A stretch of DNA of 63,374 bases, counting the filler, from Rhabdomonas costata (Eukaryota), in the NCBI GenBank assembly GCA_019059605.1. It is 52 parts of 52 records of this genome, joined end to end, with 100 filler letters (N's around TTAATTAATTAA, not from the genome) between each part and the next. Parts side by side here need not be neighbours in the genome. Positions count along the whole stretch, not along the records: positions 58,594 to 59,713 come from JAHMHO010027586.1; positions 59,814 to 60,934 come from JAHMHO010027587.1; 50 more parts are not named here. One strand, given 5' to 3'. Numbering within the stretch: the first letter of the stretch is position 1; each line of letters starts with the position of its first letter. The notes under the pieces were generated by a model. That model was not told where the DNA came from and did not search any database. It saw nothing but the letters and a program-made list of their open reading frames with translations. This document shows, piece by piece, positions 58,979 to 63,169 of this stretch. The position numbers were made by a program, and so were the translations under genes.

Positions 58979-59838
58979 CTTGGGGTGGGCTCGCAAATGA
59001 CCCCTAAGACCGTCAATCGTCTTCACTCCGGGAAAGGCCTTACCTATATGCAGAGAGAACAATGGTTATCCACGTTGGCTCGGACGCTCCGGAAGGTGAT
59101 GAAAGAGTGAGGAGTAACACAAATCCAAAAAGTGGAAAGCTTAAAAAACAAACGTACTCGGAAAGTACGCGATGCATTCCTGAGTAGGTTCAAGAGGGAT
59201 TCAAACTTTGGCCTGAAGTCGCATCACTCGACAATGGAACCGAAACACGAGTTGTTTCGCCTCAACATCACCCTTTTACCGTCCCAGAGAAAACAAACAC
59301 CAGTTCCACACAGACGTGCAACCGAACTTGGAGCCTCATCTCTGCCCGCAGGATGTCGACCTGTCAGCTTTCATTTTTGGGAGATGGAAATCTCTCTCTC
59401 TCTTTTTCTCACAAACATGCGTCGCACCGCACCGCAAAGCTGGGTGAGCTCCCAGAGGGTGAGTGCCTGCAGGGCCTCGGACTCCCAGCCCGGGCTCGTG
59501 TCGCCCTGGCGCTGTCGCAGCTGGGCTGCCACCGTGGCAGCCTCCTCGCGGCGATCCATCAGCACTGCGCAGCACAGCAGGCCAGAAGTAACCCCCACGA
59601 GGGAGCGCTGGAGCTGCTCCCGTTGCTCCTCCTGCAGAGCATCTTTGGCCTCGCGATCCCCCTGAAGACCACAGCCACCATCCTCCCTGCCCCCATTCCA
59701 TCCCAAAAACCCCNNNNNNNNNNNNNNNNNNNNNNNNNNNNNNNNNNNNNNNNNNNNTTAATTAATTAANNNNNNNNNNNNNNNNNNNNNNNNNNNNNNN
59801 NNNNNNNNNNNNNGTGTGGGTGTGTTTGGGGTGTGGGT

Positions 59839-59934
59839 GGTAAAGAATTAAATATTGGTGTAAATCAATCAGGTGAAGCTTATGAACGCTGGAGCGCACG
59901 GATTATTATAGTAGAAGACACAAAATTATTCTGA
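59839..59934 (+). CDS. C-terminus of a viral-type protein, possibly minor capsid (penton)
   Basis: GKELNIGVNQSGEAYERWSARIIIVEDTKLF-stop resembles the G..L...G..WS..L.I terminal strands of Polinton-like/NCLDV pentons. Only 31 codons are visible. Confidence 0.35.
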   Translation, partial: GKELNIGVNQSGEAYERWSARIIIVEDTKLF

Positions 59935-59994
59935 TATATTTATCGATATTTAAAGACAAGTGTTGTATTTTATTTATAAACACATAACAACACA

Positions 59995-60735
59995 ATGTCG
60001 TACAAAGTTTATAAAATTAGTGATGGTAATAAAACATATATTGGCTCGACTACAAAAACAATACCAATTAGAAAGGCACAGCATCATATTGCTTTCAAAG
60101 ACGAAAAAATAAAATGGAAATTGTACATATATTGGCGAGAAGTTGGTTGGGAAAACATGAAATTCATCGTAGTTAGAGATGATATAGAAGATAAAAACGA
60201 ATTAAAAAAACTTGAAGAAGAAATAATACGAACTATTGAAAAAAAATAACTGTCTAAACACAATAAAAGCATATTGCCCAGATTATGAAGCTTGTAGGAG
60301 CATAAATTCAGGAATAGGTGAGATCGAAAAAATTGAAATGAAAAGGAAGAATAGACGTGATTTTTATGCAAGACACAAAAATAATGAAGAATGGATGAAT
60401 CAGGAAAAGGAAAGAAACAAGTTAAGAATGAGAGAAAGGCGCAAAATTCAGACGTTAAAGCACAACAAAACCTAAGAGCAAAAGTATATTATGAAAAAAT
60501 GAAGGATGAACCAGATTTTAAACAGAAACAAAGAGAAAAGAATTTTAGATTCCACAAAAAAGAGAAAATTAAAAGAGTAGAAAAAAGAAAGATAAATGAA
60601 ATCTCAAGGGAAATTAAGAAAAATGAATATAAATGTGAATGTGGTTCAATTATAAGACTTGAAGAAAAGAAACGACATGAAAAAACAAACAAACATCAAA
60701 CATGTATAAAAGATCAAGAACAAACAGTTGAATGA
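59995..60735 (+). CDS. GIY-YIG endonuclease with Lys/Glu-rich helix and C-terminal CxCG...RH..T.KH zinc finger; split by two frameshifts
   Basis: KVYKISDGNKTYIGSTT...R...H...EEE.I then CLNTIKAY (frame 2) then KCECGSIIRLEEKKRHEKTNKHQ (frame 1). AT-rich and intronless. Confidence 0.85.
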
Positions 60736-60770
60736 ATTTAAATTTATTTTTCTTAACTTATTGTATATAA

Positions 60771-60934
60771 ATGACGACACACAAAAACGGTTTATATTCA
60801 GGAAGCGGTTTCCTATATGATGCATCACGATTATTTACACAAGAGAAGTATCCAGGTGAAAGATATGTTCCAGGATTTCAATATTTAGGACCGTATACGT
60901 CTTTAAAAGATAGAATGGATACTAATTATAACCC
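60771..60934 (+). CDS. Parvovirus VP1u-type phospholipase A2 domain protein (Polinton/adintovirus type), 3'-truncated
   Basis: GERYVPGFQYLGPYTSLKDRM matches E.H.PGY.YLGPGT.L..RL. The N-terminal SGSG/F resembles an adenain-type cleavage site. The HD catalytic dyad would lie beyond the contig end. Confidence 0.72.
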
Positions 60935-61337: not shown

Positions 61338-61373
61338 GATACAGATACAGATACAGATACAGATACAGATACA
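61338..61373. repeat. (GATACA)6 microsatellite
   Basis: Directly visible. Confidence 0.95.
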
Positions 61374-63169
61374 GCCACCGCCCTTATCCCGAGAGACGCT
61401 TCAGAACCTTGGGCTTGTCGGTGTCCAGGGAGATGCGGTAGAACAGGTGCACCACAGCCCCACTGACCTTGACCGAGGCAAGCCCACTGCCTGTGGGGGA
61501 GTGGGCGACGTTCGCAGACCCCTCGCAAAAAGCACCTCCCCGCCTCCAGCGCAGGAAATAGTGAAAGGGGATCAAGGCGGTGGCACACGAAGCAGTATCT
61601 TATTATCTTTTGATGCGGCTGTGGTGTACCCAACGGGAGTTGAGGTGGTGGTGGTGGGTATAAATGGCCACCAATGAAACCAATGTTCACCATCGTTGGT
61701 TGCCGATAGTTACCAATGAGAATAGCTAATCATATTACCCACTCCACCTCTGCACGCTGTTGATCCAAAAGGTTTGCAAAAAAAAGCAATGGGGGGGGCT
61801 TACGGCTTGGGGGAGAAGAAAAAGCAGCGGGGAAGATGCCAGGATAAAACCAAAGCAGCTATTTTCCTGAGACGACGTTCACGTTCGCATAAGAGTGAGA
61901 GAGAACAATAACAGCAACAACAAATATACATGTACAAGCGTAGCCCCGGAAAAACGCTTCCCCTCTGAGAGGAACAAAAAAACCTGTAACGTAGGGAAAG
62001 CTGAGCTTGCCATACTGCCACTGCAGGTTTTGCAGGCAAGCCGAGACCTCAGAAACGAAGACCTGCACAGAAGAGGGCACAAGTGCGAGACTTGCCTGCT
62101 CCGTGTTTGCTTACCGATCGAGCAATGCCTGCGTTTTTTGAGATCCCACCCCACNNNNNNNNNNNNNNNNNNNNNNNNNNNNNNNNNNNNNNNNNNNNTT
62201 AATTAATTAANNNNNNNNNNNNNNNNNNNNNNNNNNNNNNNNNNNNNNNNNNNNGTGTGTGTGCGTAACAGTGGAAGCCCGTGCGCATCTGCGGAGCGCT
62301 GCTCGGTGGATCCAGAAACGGTGCCCCGGGTTTCCGCCTCGGTGGTCCCCATCCTGGGCTGCCCGGAGGGGGGCTACGCCTTCGCGGTTTCAAGGAAGGG
62401 ACCTTCGGAGGACCGCCAGGTTACAATTGACCTTTTTTCTTATTTATCTCCGGCAAAGTCCCGTGCAAAAGTCAACTTCCGTGCTCATTGCCCATTGTTT
62501 TGAATATCACTCAAGGCTTACTTTCTGGAACTGGCATTGGTGTCTGCGTATTGGTTGGATTTTAGTTTTTGAGATCAATGCAGTGCGAACATACCGCATC
62601 TGTGTGCAGCTTTGTCAACGAAGTGGGGCACGAGAAAAGGAAGGCAAACACAAAATAACGGCGGCGCTGATGGACGGTGACCTTCAGCCCTTTCCGAATT
62701 TCCACCGTCTCCCTTCTGTCTCTGTTTGTGGGCAACCATCATTGGTGGAAATCTGCGGGTGATTTTGGGGGGTTATGGCCCAGGTGGAGAAGGGTGATCG
62801 GAGGCTCAGCAGAGTCTCTGCTGTCTCTGGGAAGCCTAGCTCTCCGTCGGCTGGGGAGAACCGCCGGAGCAGTGTGGCTTCGACGGTGACTTCGGGGAAG
62901 CCCCGGCCAAAGCCCCAGAAGGCCGGCCACACAGTCAAGAGCCTGCTGGAGAAGTGGATCTCCAGGTGGCCGTCCCAATGGGACGGTGGTGGATTAAATC
63001 AAATTCGGACGATAATATACCAGATACCTATTGCCACGGTTTTGTCACAGCTATGTAGCTGTCAAGAGGGGCTGCGGAGTCCCAAAAGTGCACTATATAT
63101 ACAAAGCACCCCGAGTGGTTTAGAAAGGACCGCAATGACTGTCAGCGAAACTGAAAAAGAATGAAAGGA

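What the first reader, a model, noticed from the sequence alone, without database searches (positions are those of the whole stretch)
59814..60934. Polinton/adintovirus-like virus fragment: penton-like end, GIY-YIG nuclease and parvovirus-type PLA2 in a protist assembly
Seen: this contig is far more AT-rich than the nuclear contigs, intronless and gene-dense, with three co-oriented genes, short spacers, TATTTAAAGA before the nuclease and TATATAAATG at the PLA2 start. Established: VP1u-like PLA2 domains with a YxGPG loop occur in parvoviruses and in Polintons/adintoviruses, and GIY-YIG proteins with a CxCG...H..T.KH tail are common in Polinton-like viruses and NCLDVs. Inference: this is part of the capsid module of a PLA2-encoding Polinton-like virus associated with a probable euglenozoan, a host group where such viruses are little described. 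The loop reads YLGPY rather than YLGPG. Whether it is endogenous, infecting or ingested cannot be told from here.
Basis: partly seen in the sequence, partly recalled or inferred. Interest (0 to 1): 0.78.

Follow-up and report, generated by a model that had tools for sequence, protein, structure and literature searches.

The report
Polinton-like virus fragment with PLA2
This 1.1-kb AT-rich contig is a piece of the capsid-gene block of a small Polinton-like DNA virus (end of the vertex protein gene, a broken mobile nuclease gene, start of a membrane-breaching phospholipase gene), a known kind of virus whose link to the sampled protist cannot be shown from this piece.

Summary
Contig 59814-60934 has 29.5% GC against 43.9-60% for the 51 other contigs, and carries three co-oriented reading frames.

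Two corrections:
- The first 28 bases are G/T only. 34 of 52 contigs start that way, so this looks like an amplification-primer artefact, not virus.
- The GIY-YIG gene is not intact. Its middle part lies in another frame than its two ends, compared with intact 197- and 204-aa relatives.

- The last ORF (54 aa, cut by the contig end) is 56-62% identical to the N-termini of 235-241-aa proteins. These pass Pfam's cut-off for the parvovirus-type PLA2 domain. A profile of the family finds only parvovirus VP1 N-termini in the PDB.
- The 30-aa tail of the first ORF matches the C-terminus of a ~265-aa protein that sits directly upstream of the PLA2 gene in 6 of 9 metagenome loci. Its model matches virophage, PLV and adenovirus pentons.
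- One relative, on a 19-kb AT-rich contig, also carries a double-jelly-roll capsid protein and an A32-type ATPase.

Verdict: a new member of a known kind (PLA2-encoding Polinton-like virus), with a GIY-YIG gene inserted in the penton-PLA2 spacer. Host identity and endogenous versus free state are untested. The catalytic His-Asp lies beyond the contig end.

The parts
59814..59841 (.). G/T-only run of 28 bases at the contig start. Probably an amplification-primer artefact, not viral sequence.
   Evidence: 34 of 52 contigs in the window start with at least 10 G/T-only bases and 34 of 52 end with at least 10 C/A-only bases.
59842..59934 (+). 3' end (30 codons plus stop) of the penton (vertex, single jelly-roll) protein gene.
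   Evidence: BLASTP against the L008 upstream protein: E 8e-7, 12 of 22 identical. It aligns to the C-terminus in A4. The model of the L002 homologue matches Tetraselmis viridis virus S1 (E 7e-12), mavirus minor capsid protein and MELD penton, and mavirus penton 6g41_A (Z 10.0) and Sputnik 3j26_N (Z 9.0).
59935..59994 (+). Spacer before the nuclease gene. It holds TATTTAAAGA at 59947 and lacks the TATATA / TTTCT[ACT] elements seen at the clade's gene starts.
59995..60249 (+). GIY-YIG nuclease gene, piece 1 (catalytic domain, 84 aa). It ends at a TAA directly after an A8 run.
   Evidence: Pfam PF01541 E 5.5e-5, 23.8 bits against cut-off 22.6. phrog_19446 homing endonuclease E 1e-8. 69-73% identical to P0001 and P0002.
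60239..60475 (+). GIY-YIG gene, piece 2, in the +1 frame (CLNTIKAYCPDYEA... region).
   Evidence: Aligns to residues 80 to about 135 of P0002 in another frame.
60460..60735 (+). GIY-YIG gene, piece 3, back in the frame of piece 1. It holds a basic repeat and the C-terminal CxCG...H..T.KH zinc-ribbon-like tail.
   Evidence: The zinc-ribbon label rests on the motif and on passages of PMC3671162, not on a profile hit.
60749..60770 (+). Promoter-like context of the PLA2 gene: TTTCTT at 60749 and TATATA at 60764, directly before the ATG.
   Evidence: These are the only occurrences of the two motifs in the contig. TATATA lies within 16 nt of the ATG in 9 of 9 PLA2 gene starts and in 7 of 16 L002 genes against 2.2% background.
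60771..60934 (+). 5' part (54 codons) of the PLA2-like virion protein gene. It is cut by the contig end before the catalytic His-Asp.
   Evidence: P0005: 62% identical, E 1.3e-6 over 1.84 billion proteins. L002 homologue: 56% identical, E 5e-17. The homologues pass PF08398.

Best explanation
The contig is a fragment of the morphogenetic (capsid) gene block of a small double-jelly-roll DNA virus of the Polinton-like virus / virophage realm.

Gene order: 3' end of the penton (vertex) gene, then a free-standing GIY-YIG nuclease gene with a zinc-ribbon-like tail, then the 5' part of a gene for a roughly 240-aa protein. That protein has an N-terminal parvovirus-type phospholipase A2 domain and a C-terminal hydrophobic helix.

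Shown:
- homology of all three frames;
- the conserved penton-to-PLA2 gene order in relatives;
- the capsid set (double-jelly-roll MCP, penton, A32-like ATPase) on a related 19-kb contig.

Inferred:
- The PLA2 protein is packed in the virion and breaches the endosomal or phagosomal membrane at entry, as in parvoviruses and as proposed for Polintons and adintoviruses.
- The nuclease gene is a mobile (homing-type) insertion into the normally 20-45-nt penton-PLA2 spacer. In this copy it is inactivated by two compensating one-base shifts, unless these are sequencing errors.
- Genes of the clade are transcribed from a TTTCTx...TATATA element directly before the ATG.
For: 1. Composition: GC 0.295 against 0.439-0.60 for the other 51 contigs.

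2. PLA2.
- phmmer over 1.84 billion representatives gave 6 proteins at E<=0.001. Four align from residue 1 (P0005, P0007, P0008, P0009); two are repeat proteins with short local matches.
- 2 of those 4 (P0005 33.2 bits, P0007 26.3 bits), and L002 4754-5479 (34.8 bits), pass the PF08398 cut-off of 23.9.
- His-Asp is present in 10 of the 12 family members that reach that column.
- The family profile hits 32 PDB sequences at E<=1. All are parvovirus VP1/capsid chains, best E 2e-4, aligned to VP1 residues 34-132.

3. Penton.
- Tail match E 8e-7.
- AF2 model of the L002 homologue: pLDDT 70.1.
- BFVD: 46 matches at E<=0.001, led by Tetraselmis viridis virus S1. They include mavirus minor capsid protein, MELD penton, adomavirus LO5 and adenovirus penton.
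- PDB: 6 chains at Z>=8, all from capsid entries of double-jelly-roll viruses, among them mavirus penton 6g41_A.

4. Synteny: a penton-like ORF lies directly upstream of PLA2 in 6 of the 9 loci that hold upstream sequence (L001, L002, L004, L006, L008, L011).

5. Virus type.
- The model of the L002 550-aa protein (pLDDT 66.5) matches virophage, adintovirus, adomavirus and NCLDV MCPs: 85 BFVD matches at E<=0.001, best 4e-13.
- It also matches SGIV, Sputnik, mavirus, PRD1 and PBCV-1 MCP chains.
- The L002 223-aa protein scores 0.99 (235 of 256 features) to Atlas clusters carrying Pox_A32.

6. Nuclease: Pfam GIY-YIG above cut-off. Intact relatives of 197 and 204 aa exist. The frame pattern is shown by tblastn.

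7. Literature (passages read): PLA2 in Polintons and GIY-YIG in PLVs and virophages (PMC4642659; PMC3671162). Adintovirus PLA2X (PMC8502044).
Against: - The window fragment itself hits no Pfam, PHROG, NCBIfam or PDB entry, and it ends before the catalytic His-Asp.
- Its loop lacks the last Gly (YLGPY).
- The penton assignment for the window rests on 30 residues.
- Both structural models are of middling confidence. The MCP matches have low TM-scores (0.3-0.45) and high rmsd.
- MCP, ATPase and the rest are on relatives, not on this contig. No other contig of the assembly could be searched, because no genome is held.
- Pattern scans of IMG/VR found no relative of the PLA2 protein, the nuclease or the MCP.
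- The polymerase and adenain-like protease of L002 are read by eye only; profiles did not confirm them.
Confidence: 0.85

Rival explanations
1. The fragment is part of an endogenous, integrated and decaying Polinton-like element in the genome of the sampled protist, not a virion or replicating genome.
For: - The nuclease gene carries two frame disruptions.
- Related loci show PLV-type AT-rich DNA next to GC-rich DNA. L007 holds a 4-kb GC-rich block with an RVT_1 reverse transcriptase (E 3e-13) flanked by AT-rich sequence on both sides. L003 has about 1.2 kb of 46-52% GC DNA upstream of its PLA2 gene.
- Passages of PMC10120064 report that endogenous PLVs are common in protist genomes, differ in GC from the host, carry embedded retrotransposons and assemble as separate short contigs.
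Against: - There is no junction with host DNA on this contig.
- The two shifts compensate each other and the first lies in an A8 run, so they could be amplification or sequencing errors. PMC10120064 notes that many stop codons in such elements are assembly artefacts.
- The penton tail and the PLA2 start are open and conserved.
- L003 and L007 could be chimeric metagenome assemblies.
Confidence: 0.4
2. The fragment comes from a free virus or from another organism co-sampled with the cell (an infecting, attached or ingested particle, or ambient DNA), with no genomic link to the protist.
For: - It is the single AT-rich contig among 52.
- The relatives come from environmental metagenome contigs.
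- The conserved frames are open and keep the clade's promoter-like elements.
Against: Nothing on the contig argues against it. The nuclease frameshifts would be unexpected in a replicating genome if they are real.
Confidence: 0.45
3. The fragment belongs to a giant virus (Nucleocytoviricota), not to a small Polinton-like virus.
For: - It is AT-rich.
- GIY-YIG genes are common in giant viruses (recalled).
- The penton model also matches klosneuvirus, catovirus and CroV proteins.
- The Atlas clusters nearest to the L002 ATPase are labelled mostly Nucleocytoviricota.
Against: - The syntenic relative L002 packs fibre-like protein, penton, PLA2, ATPase, MCP and proteases into 15.5 kb of a 19-kb contig.
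- The best penton match is the PLV Tetraselmis viridis virus S1.
- The best MCP matches are virophage and adintovirus proteins.
Confidence: 0.05
4. The virus is a virophage-like dependant of a giant virus rather than an autonomous Polinton-like virus.
For: - The best MCP matches are virophage MCPs: Qinghai Lake virophage 4e-13, Sissi virophage 5e-13.
- TCTA lies within 40 nt upstream of 7 of 16 L002 genes against 18% background, P about 0.016. It lies about 19 nt upstream of the PLA2 ATG in 6 of 8 loci.
- I recall TCTA as the CroV/mavirus late promoter core. My search for it found no paper.
Against: - The TCTA enrichment is weak and the window copy reads TCTTA.
- A much stronger signal is TATATA at the ATG, which I cannot tie to any giant virus.
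- L002 appears to carry its own polymerase (by eye only).
Confidence: 0.15

Closest known systems
Polinton-like viruses (PLVs), TVS group, e.g. Tetraselmis viridis virus S1 (Yutin et al. 2015, PMC4642659)
   Same: - The best structural match of the penton homologue is a TVS1 protein (E 7e-12).
- Shared gene set: double-jelly-roll MCP, penton, A32-type ATPase, and GIY-YIG as an accessory gene.
- A small AT-rich genome of about 19 kb or more in relative L002.
   Different: - It carries a parvovirus-type PLA2 gene. The 2015 paper mentions this for 'some Polintons'; for PLVs it reports other lipases (passages).
- A 2026 preprint counts a single PLA2-like enzyme among 2,355 marine PLVs (passage).
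- Sequence similarity to TVS1 is only 15% in the structural alignment.
Adintovirus PLA2X (Starrett et al. 2021, PMC8502044)
   Same: A PLA2 domain like parvovirus VP1u followed by a C-terminal membrane-active or basic segment, encoded in the virion-protein module next to the capsid genes (section 3.2 passage). Full-length relatives here also have a C-terminal hydrophobic helix.
   Different: - Adintoviruses are animal viruses with an rve integrase and pPolB. No integrase was seen in the 15.5 kb of L002 held.
- The pX-like nature of the C-terminus was not tested.
- No sequence comparison with an adintovirus PLA2X was made.
Parvovirus VP1 unique region PLA2 (Pfam PF08398)
   Same: The family profile aligns to AAV VP1 residues 34-132, with PGY.YLGP, P.N..D..A..HD.AY and ..AD.EF in register.
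   Different: - Here the domain is a separate small protein of a dsDNA virus, not the N-terminus of the capsid protein.
- The window copy reads YLGPY.
- Its catalytic part is missing from the contig.
Virophage / Polinton GIY-YIG-zinc-ribbon proteins (mavirus MV06, OLV1; Yutin et al. 2013, PMC3671162)
   Same: An N-terminal GIY-YIG domain fused to a short C-terminal Cys/His ribbon, found in virophages, some Polintons and Phaeocystis globosa virus (Table 1 passages).
   Different: - No direct comparison with MV06 or OLV1 was made.
- The window copy has an extra basic repeat compared with P0001 and P0002, and is frameshifted.
Free-standing homing endonuclease genes of T4-like phages (intronless homing; recalled)
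   Same: A GIY-YIG gene sits in a short spacer between two conserved genes, and the spacer is empty in relatives. The penton-PLA2 spacer is about 20-45 nt in 5 loci. It holds a different ORF in L004 and the GIY-YIG gene here.
   Different: Homing was not shown. The context of the intact relatives P0001 and P0002 could not be fetched.

Membership tests
Polinton-like virus / Preplasmiviricota capsid module | Double jelly-roll major capsid protein | tested here: met
   Not on the window contig. In the syntenic relative L002 (7668-9320) the AF2 model (pLDDT 66.5) matches virophage, adintovirus, adomavirus and NCLDV MCPs (best E 4e-13). It also matches Sputnik, mavirus, PRD1 and PBCV-1 MCP chains. 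TM-scores are low (0.3-0.45).
Polinton-like virus / Preplasmiviricota capsid module | Single jelly-roll penton (minor capsid) protein | tested here: met
   The window holds only the last 30 residues, homologous to the C-terminus of the ~265-aa protein. That protein's model matches pentons of mavirus (6g41_A, Z 10.0, rmsd 7.3, 227 aligned) and Sputnik (3j26_N, Z 9.0), plus chains of the PBCV-1 and fowl adenovirus capsid entries. In BFVD it matches TVS1, MELD and adomavirus penton proteins.
Polinton-like virus / Preplasmiviricota capsid module | FtsK/HerA (A32-type) packaging ATPase | tested here: inconclusive
   L002 5862-6533 scores 0.99 (235 of 256 features) to Atlas clusters with PF04665 Pox_A32 on 41% of members. 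It gives no Pfam hit and no PDB hit. The Walker A motif was read by eye.
Polinton-like virus / Preplasmiviricota capsid module | Small linear dsDNA genome (about 15-40 kb) with a replication gene (pPolB or primase-helicase) | tested here: inconclusive
   Relative L002 lies on a 19,042-bp contig. Its 737-aa open-ended ORF shows PolB exonuclease-like motifs by eye. Profiles found only a weak endonuclease VII-like zinc motif and there was no PDB match.
Parvovirus-type phospholipase A2 (Pfam PF08398) | Profile match above the curated cut-off | tested here: inconclusive
   The window fragment (54 aa) gives no hit. Its homologues pass the 23.9-bit cut-off: P0005 33.2, P0007 26.3, L002 34.8 bits.
Parvovirus-type phospholipase A2 (Pfam PF08398) | Calcium-binding loop YxGxG | tested here: not met
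   The window reads YLGPY. In the family 8 of 15 members read GPG and 7 of 15 have Y, W or H at the last position. The AAV VP1 chains matched read YLGPF, so the strict motif is not universal.
Parvovirus-type phospholipase A2 (Pfam PF08398) | Catalytic His-Asp dyad and downstream Asp | not testable with these tools
   The contig ends about 15 codons before the His-Asp column. His-Asp is present in 10 of the 12 relatives that reach it.
GIY-YIG nuclease (Pfam PF01541) | Profile match above the cut-off | tested here: met
   E 5.5e-5, 23.8 bits against cut-off 22.6, residues 9-82. phrog_19446 homing endonuclease E 1e-8.
GIY-YIG nuclease (Pfam PF01541) | One intact open reading frame | tested here: not met
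   The middle part is in the +1 frame relative to both ends when compared with the intact relatives P0001 and P0002.
Adintovirus | Animal host, rve integrase and pPolB | tested here: inconclusive
   No integrase hit among the 16 ORFs of L002 scanned, but about 3.5 kb of that contig is not held. Hosts are unknown.
Virophage (Maveriviricetes) | Dependence on a giant virus; virophage-type MCP | not testable with these tools
   The best MCP matches are virophage MCPs, but at 9-12% identity. Dependence cannot be read from sequence.

The most novel reading that the evidence does not exclude
The contig is from an undescribed PLA2-carrying clade of Polinton-like viruses that lives, integrated or persistent, in a heterotrophic protist lineage from which no such virus is reported. 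In this clade the penton-PLA2 spacer is a hot spot for homing-type mobile genes (GIY-YIG here, a Cys-rich ORF in L004). That would be a first case of intronless homing among Polinton-like viruses. A Tyr/Trp-for-Gly subclade of the PLA2 loop would mark a functional variant of the entry lipase.
Probability: 0.15. Interest if true: 0.6.

Novelty: new member of a known kind. Interest (0 to 1): 0.35.

Why it matters
Polinton-like viruses and their endogenous copies are now seen as major, little-mapped parasites or defenders of protists. A PLA2-type entry protein is rare among them: a 2026 preprint counts one case in 2,355 marine PLVs (passage).

This contig and its 11 metagenome relatives define a coherent set of loci with a conserved penton-PLA2 gene pair. 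They also carry a strong TATATA element at gene starts.

If the contig could be tied to the sampled cell, it would add a host lineage. As it stands it is a 1.1-kb fragment without host linkage, so its value is mainly as a pointer to that clade.

Tried and rejected
- **Whole assembly:** no genome is held for this window, so AT-rich sister contigs could not be sought.
- **IMG/VR scans:** the window PLA2 fragment, P0002, P0005, the PLA2 alignment A3 and the MCP alignment A5 all found no relative. The nuclease alignment A1 was too variable to scan.
- **Word-based protein search** for longer relatives of the PLA2 fragment found nothing. The exhaustive phmmer search then did.
- **Atlas search** with the PLA2 fragment gave only scores of 0.78 or less to unrelated bacterial clusters; discarded.
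- **PDB phmmer** with the window fragment and with the L002 ATPase gave nothing.
- **Rfam** on the whole window: no match.
- **Earlier findings of this scan:** nothing for this genome or sequence.
- **Record behind L002:** not held, so the remaining 3.5 kb (rest of the polymerase, possible integrase) was not seen.
- **Alternative genetic code** for the TAA at 60247: rejected. The same frame then meets TGA, TAG and more stops, while the +1 frame continues the homology.
- **G/T-rich start as a viral telomere:** rejected, because 34 of 52 unrelated contigs share that feature.
- **Host lineage:** Pfam on 18 long ORFs of other contigs gave only zf-CW above its cut-off, plus Ank_2 and Guanylate_cyc below theirs. 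This fits a eukaryote but names no lineage.
Full report
**What the window is.** The 63,374-base window is not one locus. It is 52 contigs of about 1,121 bp each, joined by N-runs around TTAATTAATTAA. 34 of the 52 begin with at least 10 bases made only of G and T, and 34 of 52 end with at least 10 bases made only of C and A. I read this as the footprint of a G/T-only degenerate amplification primer; the link to single-cell whole-genome amplification kits is recalled, not tested. The target contig (59814-60934) starts with 28 such bases, so viral sequence begins at 59842. Contig ends are therefore amplicon or assembly ends, not genome ends.

**The observation.** The contig has GC 0.295; the other 51 range from 0.439 to 0.60. 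It carries three co-oriented frames.

**The nuclease gene.**
- Residues 1-84 (59995-60249) pass Pfam GIY-YIG: E 5.5e-5, 23.8 bits against cut-off 22.6. They also match a PHROG homing-endonuclease family at E 1e-8.
- Two close relatives exist as intact ORFs on short contigs: P0001 (197 aa) and P0002 (204 aa), 69-73% identical.
- Aligned against them, the window gene continues after a TAA that directly follows an A8 run, but in the +1 frame (about 60239-60475). It then returns to the original frame for the C-terminal part, up to 60735. That part carries the CxCG...H..T.KH tail.
- The gene as assembled is therefore broken by two compensating one-base shifts. An alternative code does not rescue it, since the original frame meets several different stops.
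- Whether the shifts are real (decay) or errors cannot be told without reads. A passage of PMC10120064 warns that many such stops in endogenous viral elements are assembly artefacts.
- The GIY-YIG plus zinc-ribbon architecture is described for mavirus MV06, OLV1, some Polintons and Phaeocystis globosa virus (passages of PMC3671162). I made no direct comparison with those proteins.

**The third gene.**
- The 54-aa fragment hits no profile library or PDB sequence on its own. A word-based search and IMG/VR scans found nothing.
- The exhaustive phmmer search over 1.84 billion representatives gave six proteins at E<=0.001. Two are repeat proteins with short local matches, which I set aside. Four align from the first residue.
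- The best, P0005 (235 aa, 62% identical, E 1.3e-6), and P0007 pass Pfam PF08398 'Phospholipase A2-like domain': 33.2 and 26.3 bits against cut-off 23.9. P0008 and P0009 do not, and P0008 looks chimeric.
- A metagenome scan with the family alignment returned 11 loci. The L002 homologue is 56% identical to the window fragment (E 5e-17) and also passes PF08398 (34.8 bits).
- In the 15-member alignment, His-Asp is present in 10 of the 12 sequences that reach that column, followed by a conserved A-D-x-x-F. Full-length members end in a hydrophobic helix.
- A profile of this alignment hits 32 PDB sequences at E<=1. All are parvovirus VP1/capsid chains, best E 2e-4, aligned to VP1 residues 34-132 with the loop, His-Asp and Asp motifs in register.
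- The family is therefore a parvovirus-type PLA2. The window holds only its first third and stops about 15 codons before His-Asp.
- The loop reads YLGPY. Family-wide, 8 of 15 read GPG and 7 of 15 have Y, W or H instead. The matched AAV chains read YLGPF. The deviation is thus a clade trait, not a sign that the assignment is wrong. Activity remains untested.

**The first frame.**
- Its 30 real residues align to the C-terminus of a ~265-aa protein encoded directly upstream of the PLA2 gene: E 8e-7 against L008 and in alignment A4.
- This arrangement is found in 6 of the 9 loci that hold upstream sequence. It is absent in L003, L009 and L010.
- An AF2 model of the L002 member (pLDDT 70.1, pTM 0.52) gave 46 BFVD matches at E<=0.001. 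They are led by a protein of the PLV Tetraselmis viridis virus S1 (7e-12). They include the mavirus minor capsid protein, a MELD-virus penton, adomavirus LO5, giant-virus minor capsid proteins and an adenovirus penton.
- Against PDB representatives, the six chains at Z>=8 all come from capsid entries of double-jelly-roll viruses. They include mavirus penton 6g41_A (Z 10.0, rmsd 7.3, 227 aligned) and Sputnik 3j26_N (Z 9.0), plus chains of the PBCV-1, fowl adenovirus and EhV-201 capsid entries.
- The 'penton-like end' is supported.

**What kind of virus.** L002 is 15.5 kb of a 19-kb contig with 26-35% GC. Its genes are:
- a 1,264-aa fibre-like protein on the opposite strand;
- the penton;
- the PLA2 protein;
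- a 223-aa protein with Atlas score 0.99 to Pox_A32 clusters, but no Pfam or PDB hit;
- a 550-aa protein whose model (pLDDT 66.5) matches double-jelly-roll MCPs. These include virophages, adintovirus, adomavirus and giant viruses (85 BFVD matches at E<=0.001, best 4e-13), and SGIV, Sputnik, mavirus, PRD1 and PBCV-1 chains. TM-scores are only 0.3-0.45;
- a papain-family protease (E 7e-8) and an HNH endonuclease;
- an open-ended 737-aa ORF that I read by eye as a protein-primed PolB, which no profile confirmed.

This is the gene set of a Polinton-like virus or virophage-type virus. A giant-virus origin is unlikely given this compactness.

**Gene order and the insertion.**
- In L001, L002, L006, L008 and L011 the penton stop and the PLA2 start are about 20-45 nt apart.
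- In L004 a Cys-rich 97-aa ORF sits between them.
- In the window the spacer is 836 nt and holds the GIY-YIG gene.
- The nuclease gene lacks the start-site elements of the clade. TATATA lies within 16 nt of the ATG in 9 of 9 PLA2 genes and in 7 of 16 L002 genes, against 2.2% background (P about 2e-8). TTTCT[ACT] lies within 32 nt in 7 of 16 genes against 7%. In the window contig the single copy of each motif lies just before the PLA2 ATG.
- I infer a mobile, homing-type insertion. This is an analogy with free-standing phage endonuclease genes (recalled), not a test.

**Mechanism.**
- Shown: the homologies, the synteny, and the capsid set on relatives.
- Inferred: the PLA2 protein is a virion component that opens the endosomal or phagosomal membrane at entry. 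This is established for parvoviruses and proposed for Polintons, PLVs and adintoviruses (passages of PMC4642659; PMC8502044 section 3.2).

**State and host.**
- Nothing on the contig links it to the protist. Pfam on 18 long ORFs of other contigs gave zf-CW above its cut-off, and Ank_2 and Guanylate_cyc below theirs. This fits a eukaryote but names no lineage, so the euglenozoan label was not tested.
- For an endogenous copy speak the frameshifts and two relatives flanked by GC-rich DNA. L007 has a 4-kb GC-rich block with a reverse transcriptase (RVT_1, E 3e-13) between AT-rich flanks. This matches what PMC10120064 describes for endogenous PLVs.
- Against it: both could be artefacts.
- I put endogenous at about 0.4 and free or co-sampled at about 0.45.

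**Novelty.**
- PLA2 genes in Polintons and adintoviruses, and GIY-YIG genes in PLVs and virophages, are in print.
- A 2026 preprint lists one PLA2-like enzyme among 2,355 marine PLVs.
- My search for 'Polinton-like' with 'Euglenozoa' found five papers. The two listed, going by their titles and abstract openings in the listing, do not concern such a virus. That is a weak negative.
- Pattern scans of IMG/VR found no member of this clade.
- I rate the finding a new member of a known kind, interest 0.35. The catalogue supplements of the PLV surveys were not consulted and may already hold this clade.

Noticed in passing
window 1-63374: The window is 52 separate contigs of about 1121 bp joined by N/TTAATTAATTAA spacers. 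34 of 52 start with at least 10 G/T-only bases and 34 of 52 end with at least 10 C/A-only bases. This looks like primer remnants of a whole-genome amplification, so ORFs that run into contig ends include artefact codons.
   Followed up: yes
L007 780-4810: A GC-rich (55-76%) block of about 4 kb sits between AT-rich PLV-like flanks, directly after the PLA2 gene. It holds a 1182-aa ORF on the minus strand with Pfam RVT_1 (E 3e-13). It is either a retroelement inside an endogenous PLV copy or a chimeric assembly.
   Followed up: partly
L003 1-1270: The PLA2 gene most like the window's (also YLGPYT) is preceded by about 1.2 kb of 46-52% GC DNA with no family hit, instead of the penton gene. This may be a host junction or a chimera.
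   Followed up: no
L004 567-857: A Cys-rich 97-aa ORF occupies the same penton-PLA2 spacer that holds the GIY-YIG gene in the window. The spacer may be a hot spot for accessory or mobile genes.
   Followed up: no
L002 gene starts; window 60749-60770: TATATA lies within 16 nt upstream of the ATG in 7 of 16 L002 genes against 2.2% background. TTTCT[ACT] lies within 32 nt in 7 of 16 against 7%. TCTA lies within 40 nt in 7 of 16 against 18%. This is a candidate promoter/initiator element of the clade, and the window PLA2 gene has it.
   Followed up: partly
L002 10379-11125 and 9684-10133: The related 19-kb contig encodes a papain-family (Peptidase_C1, E 7e-8) protease. It also has a 149-aa protein that by eye looks like an adenain-type protease, though no profile hit supports that. 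Two proteases would be unusual for a PLV.
   Followed up: no
L002 153-3947 (-), L001 1-1965 (-), L008 and L011 5' parts: Large Ser/Thr/Asn-rich repeat proteins are encoded divergently from the penton gene. They match PHROGs of unknown function (best E 2e-20). They are probably fibres or spikes.
   Followed up: no
L001 2011-2794: The penton gene of L001 is split over two overlapping frames (2011-2667 and 2537-2794). This is another frameshift in this set of loci.
   Followed up: no
L009, L010: Two loci with about 40% GC carry a PLA2-type motif (HVPGYNYLGPGTNLD...HDKAY) in a longer protein with a repetitive basic C-terminus and different neighbours. They probably belong to another virus group.
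   Followed up: no
window 61340-61375: The next contig holds six tandem copies of GATACA. It also begins with a run of 12 C, instead of the usual G/T start.
   Followed up: no
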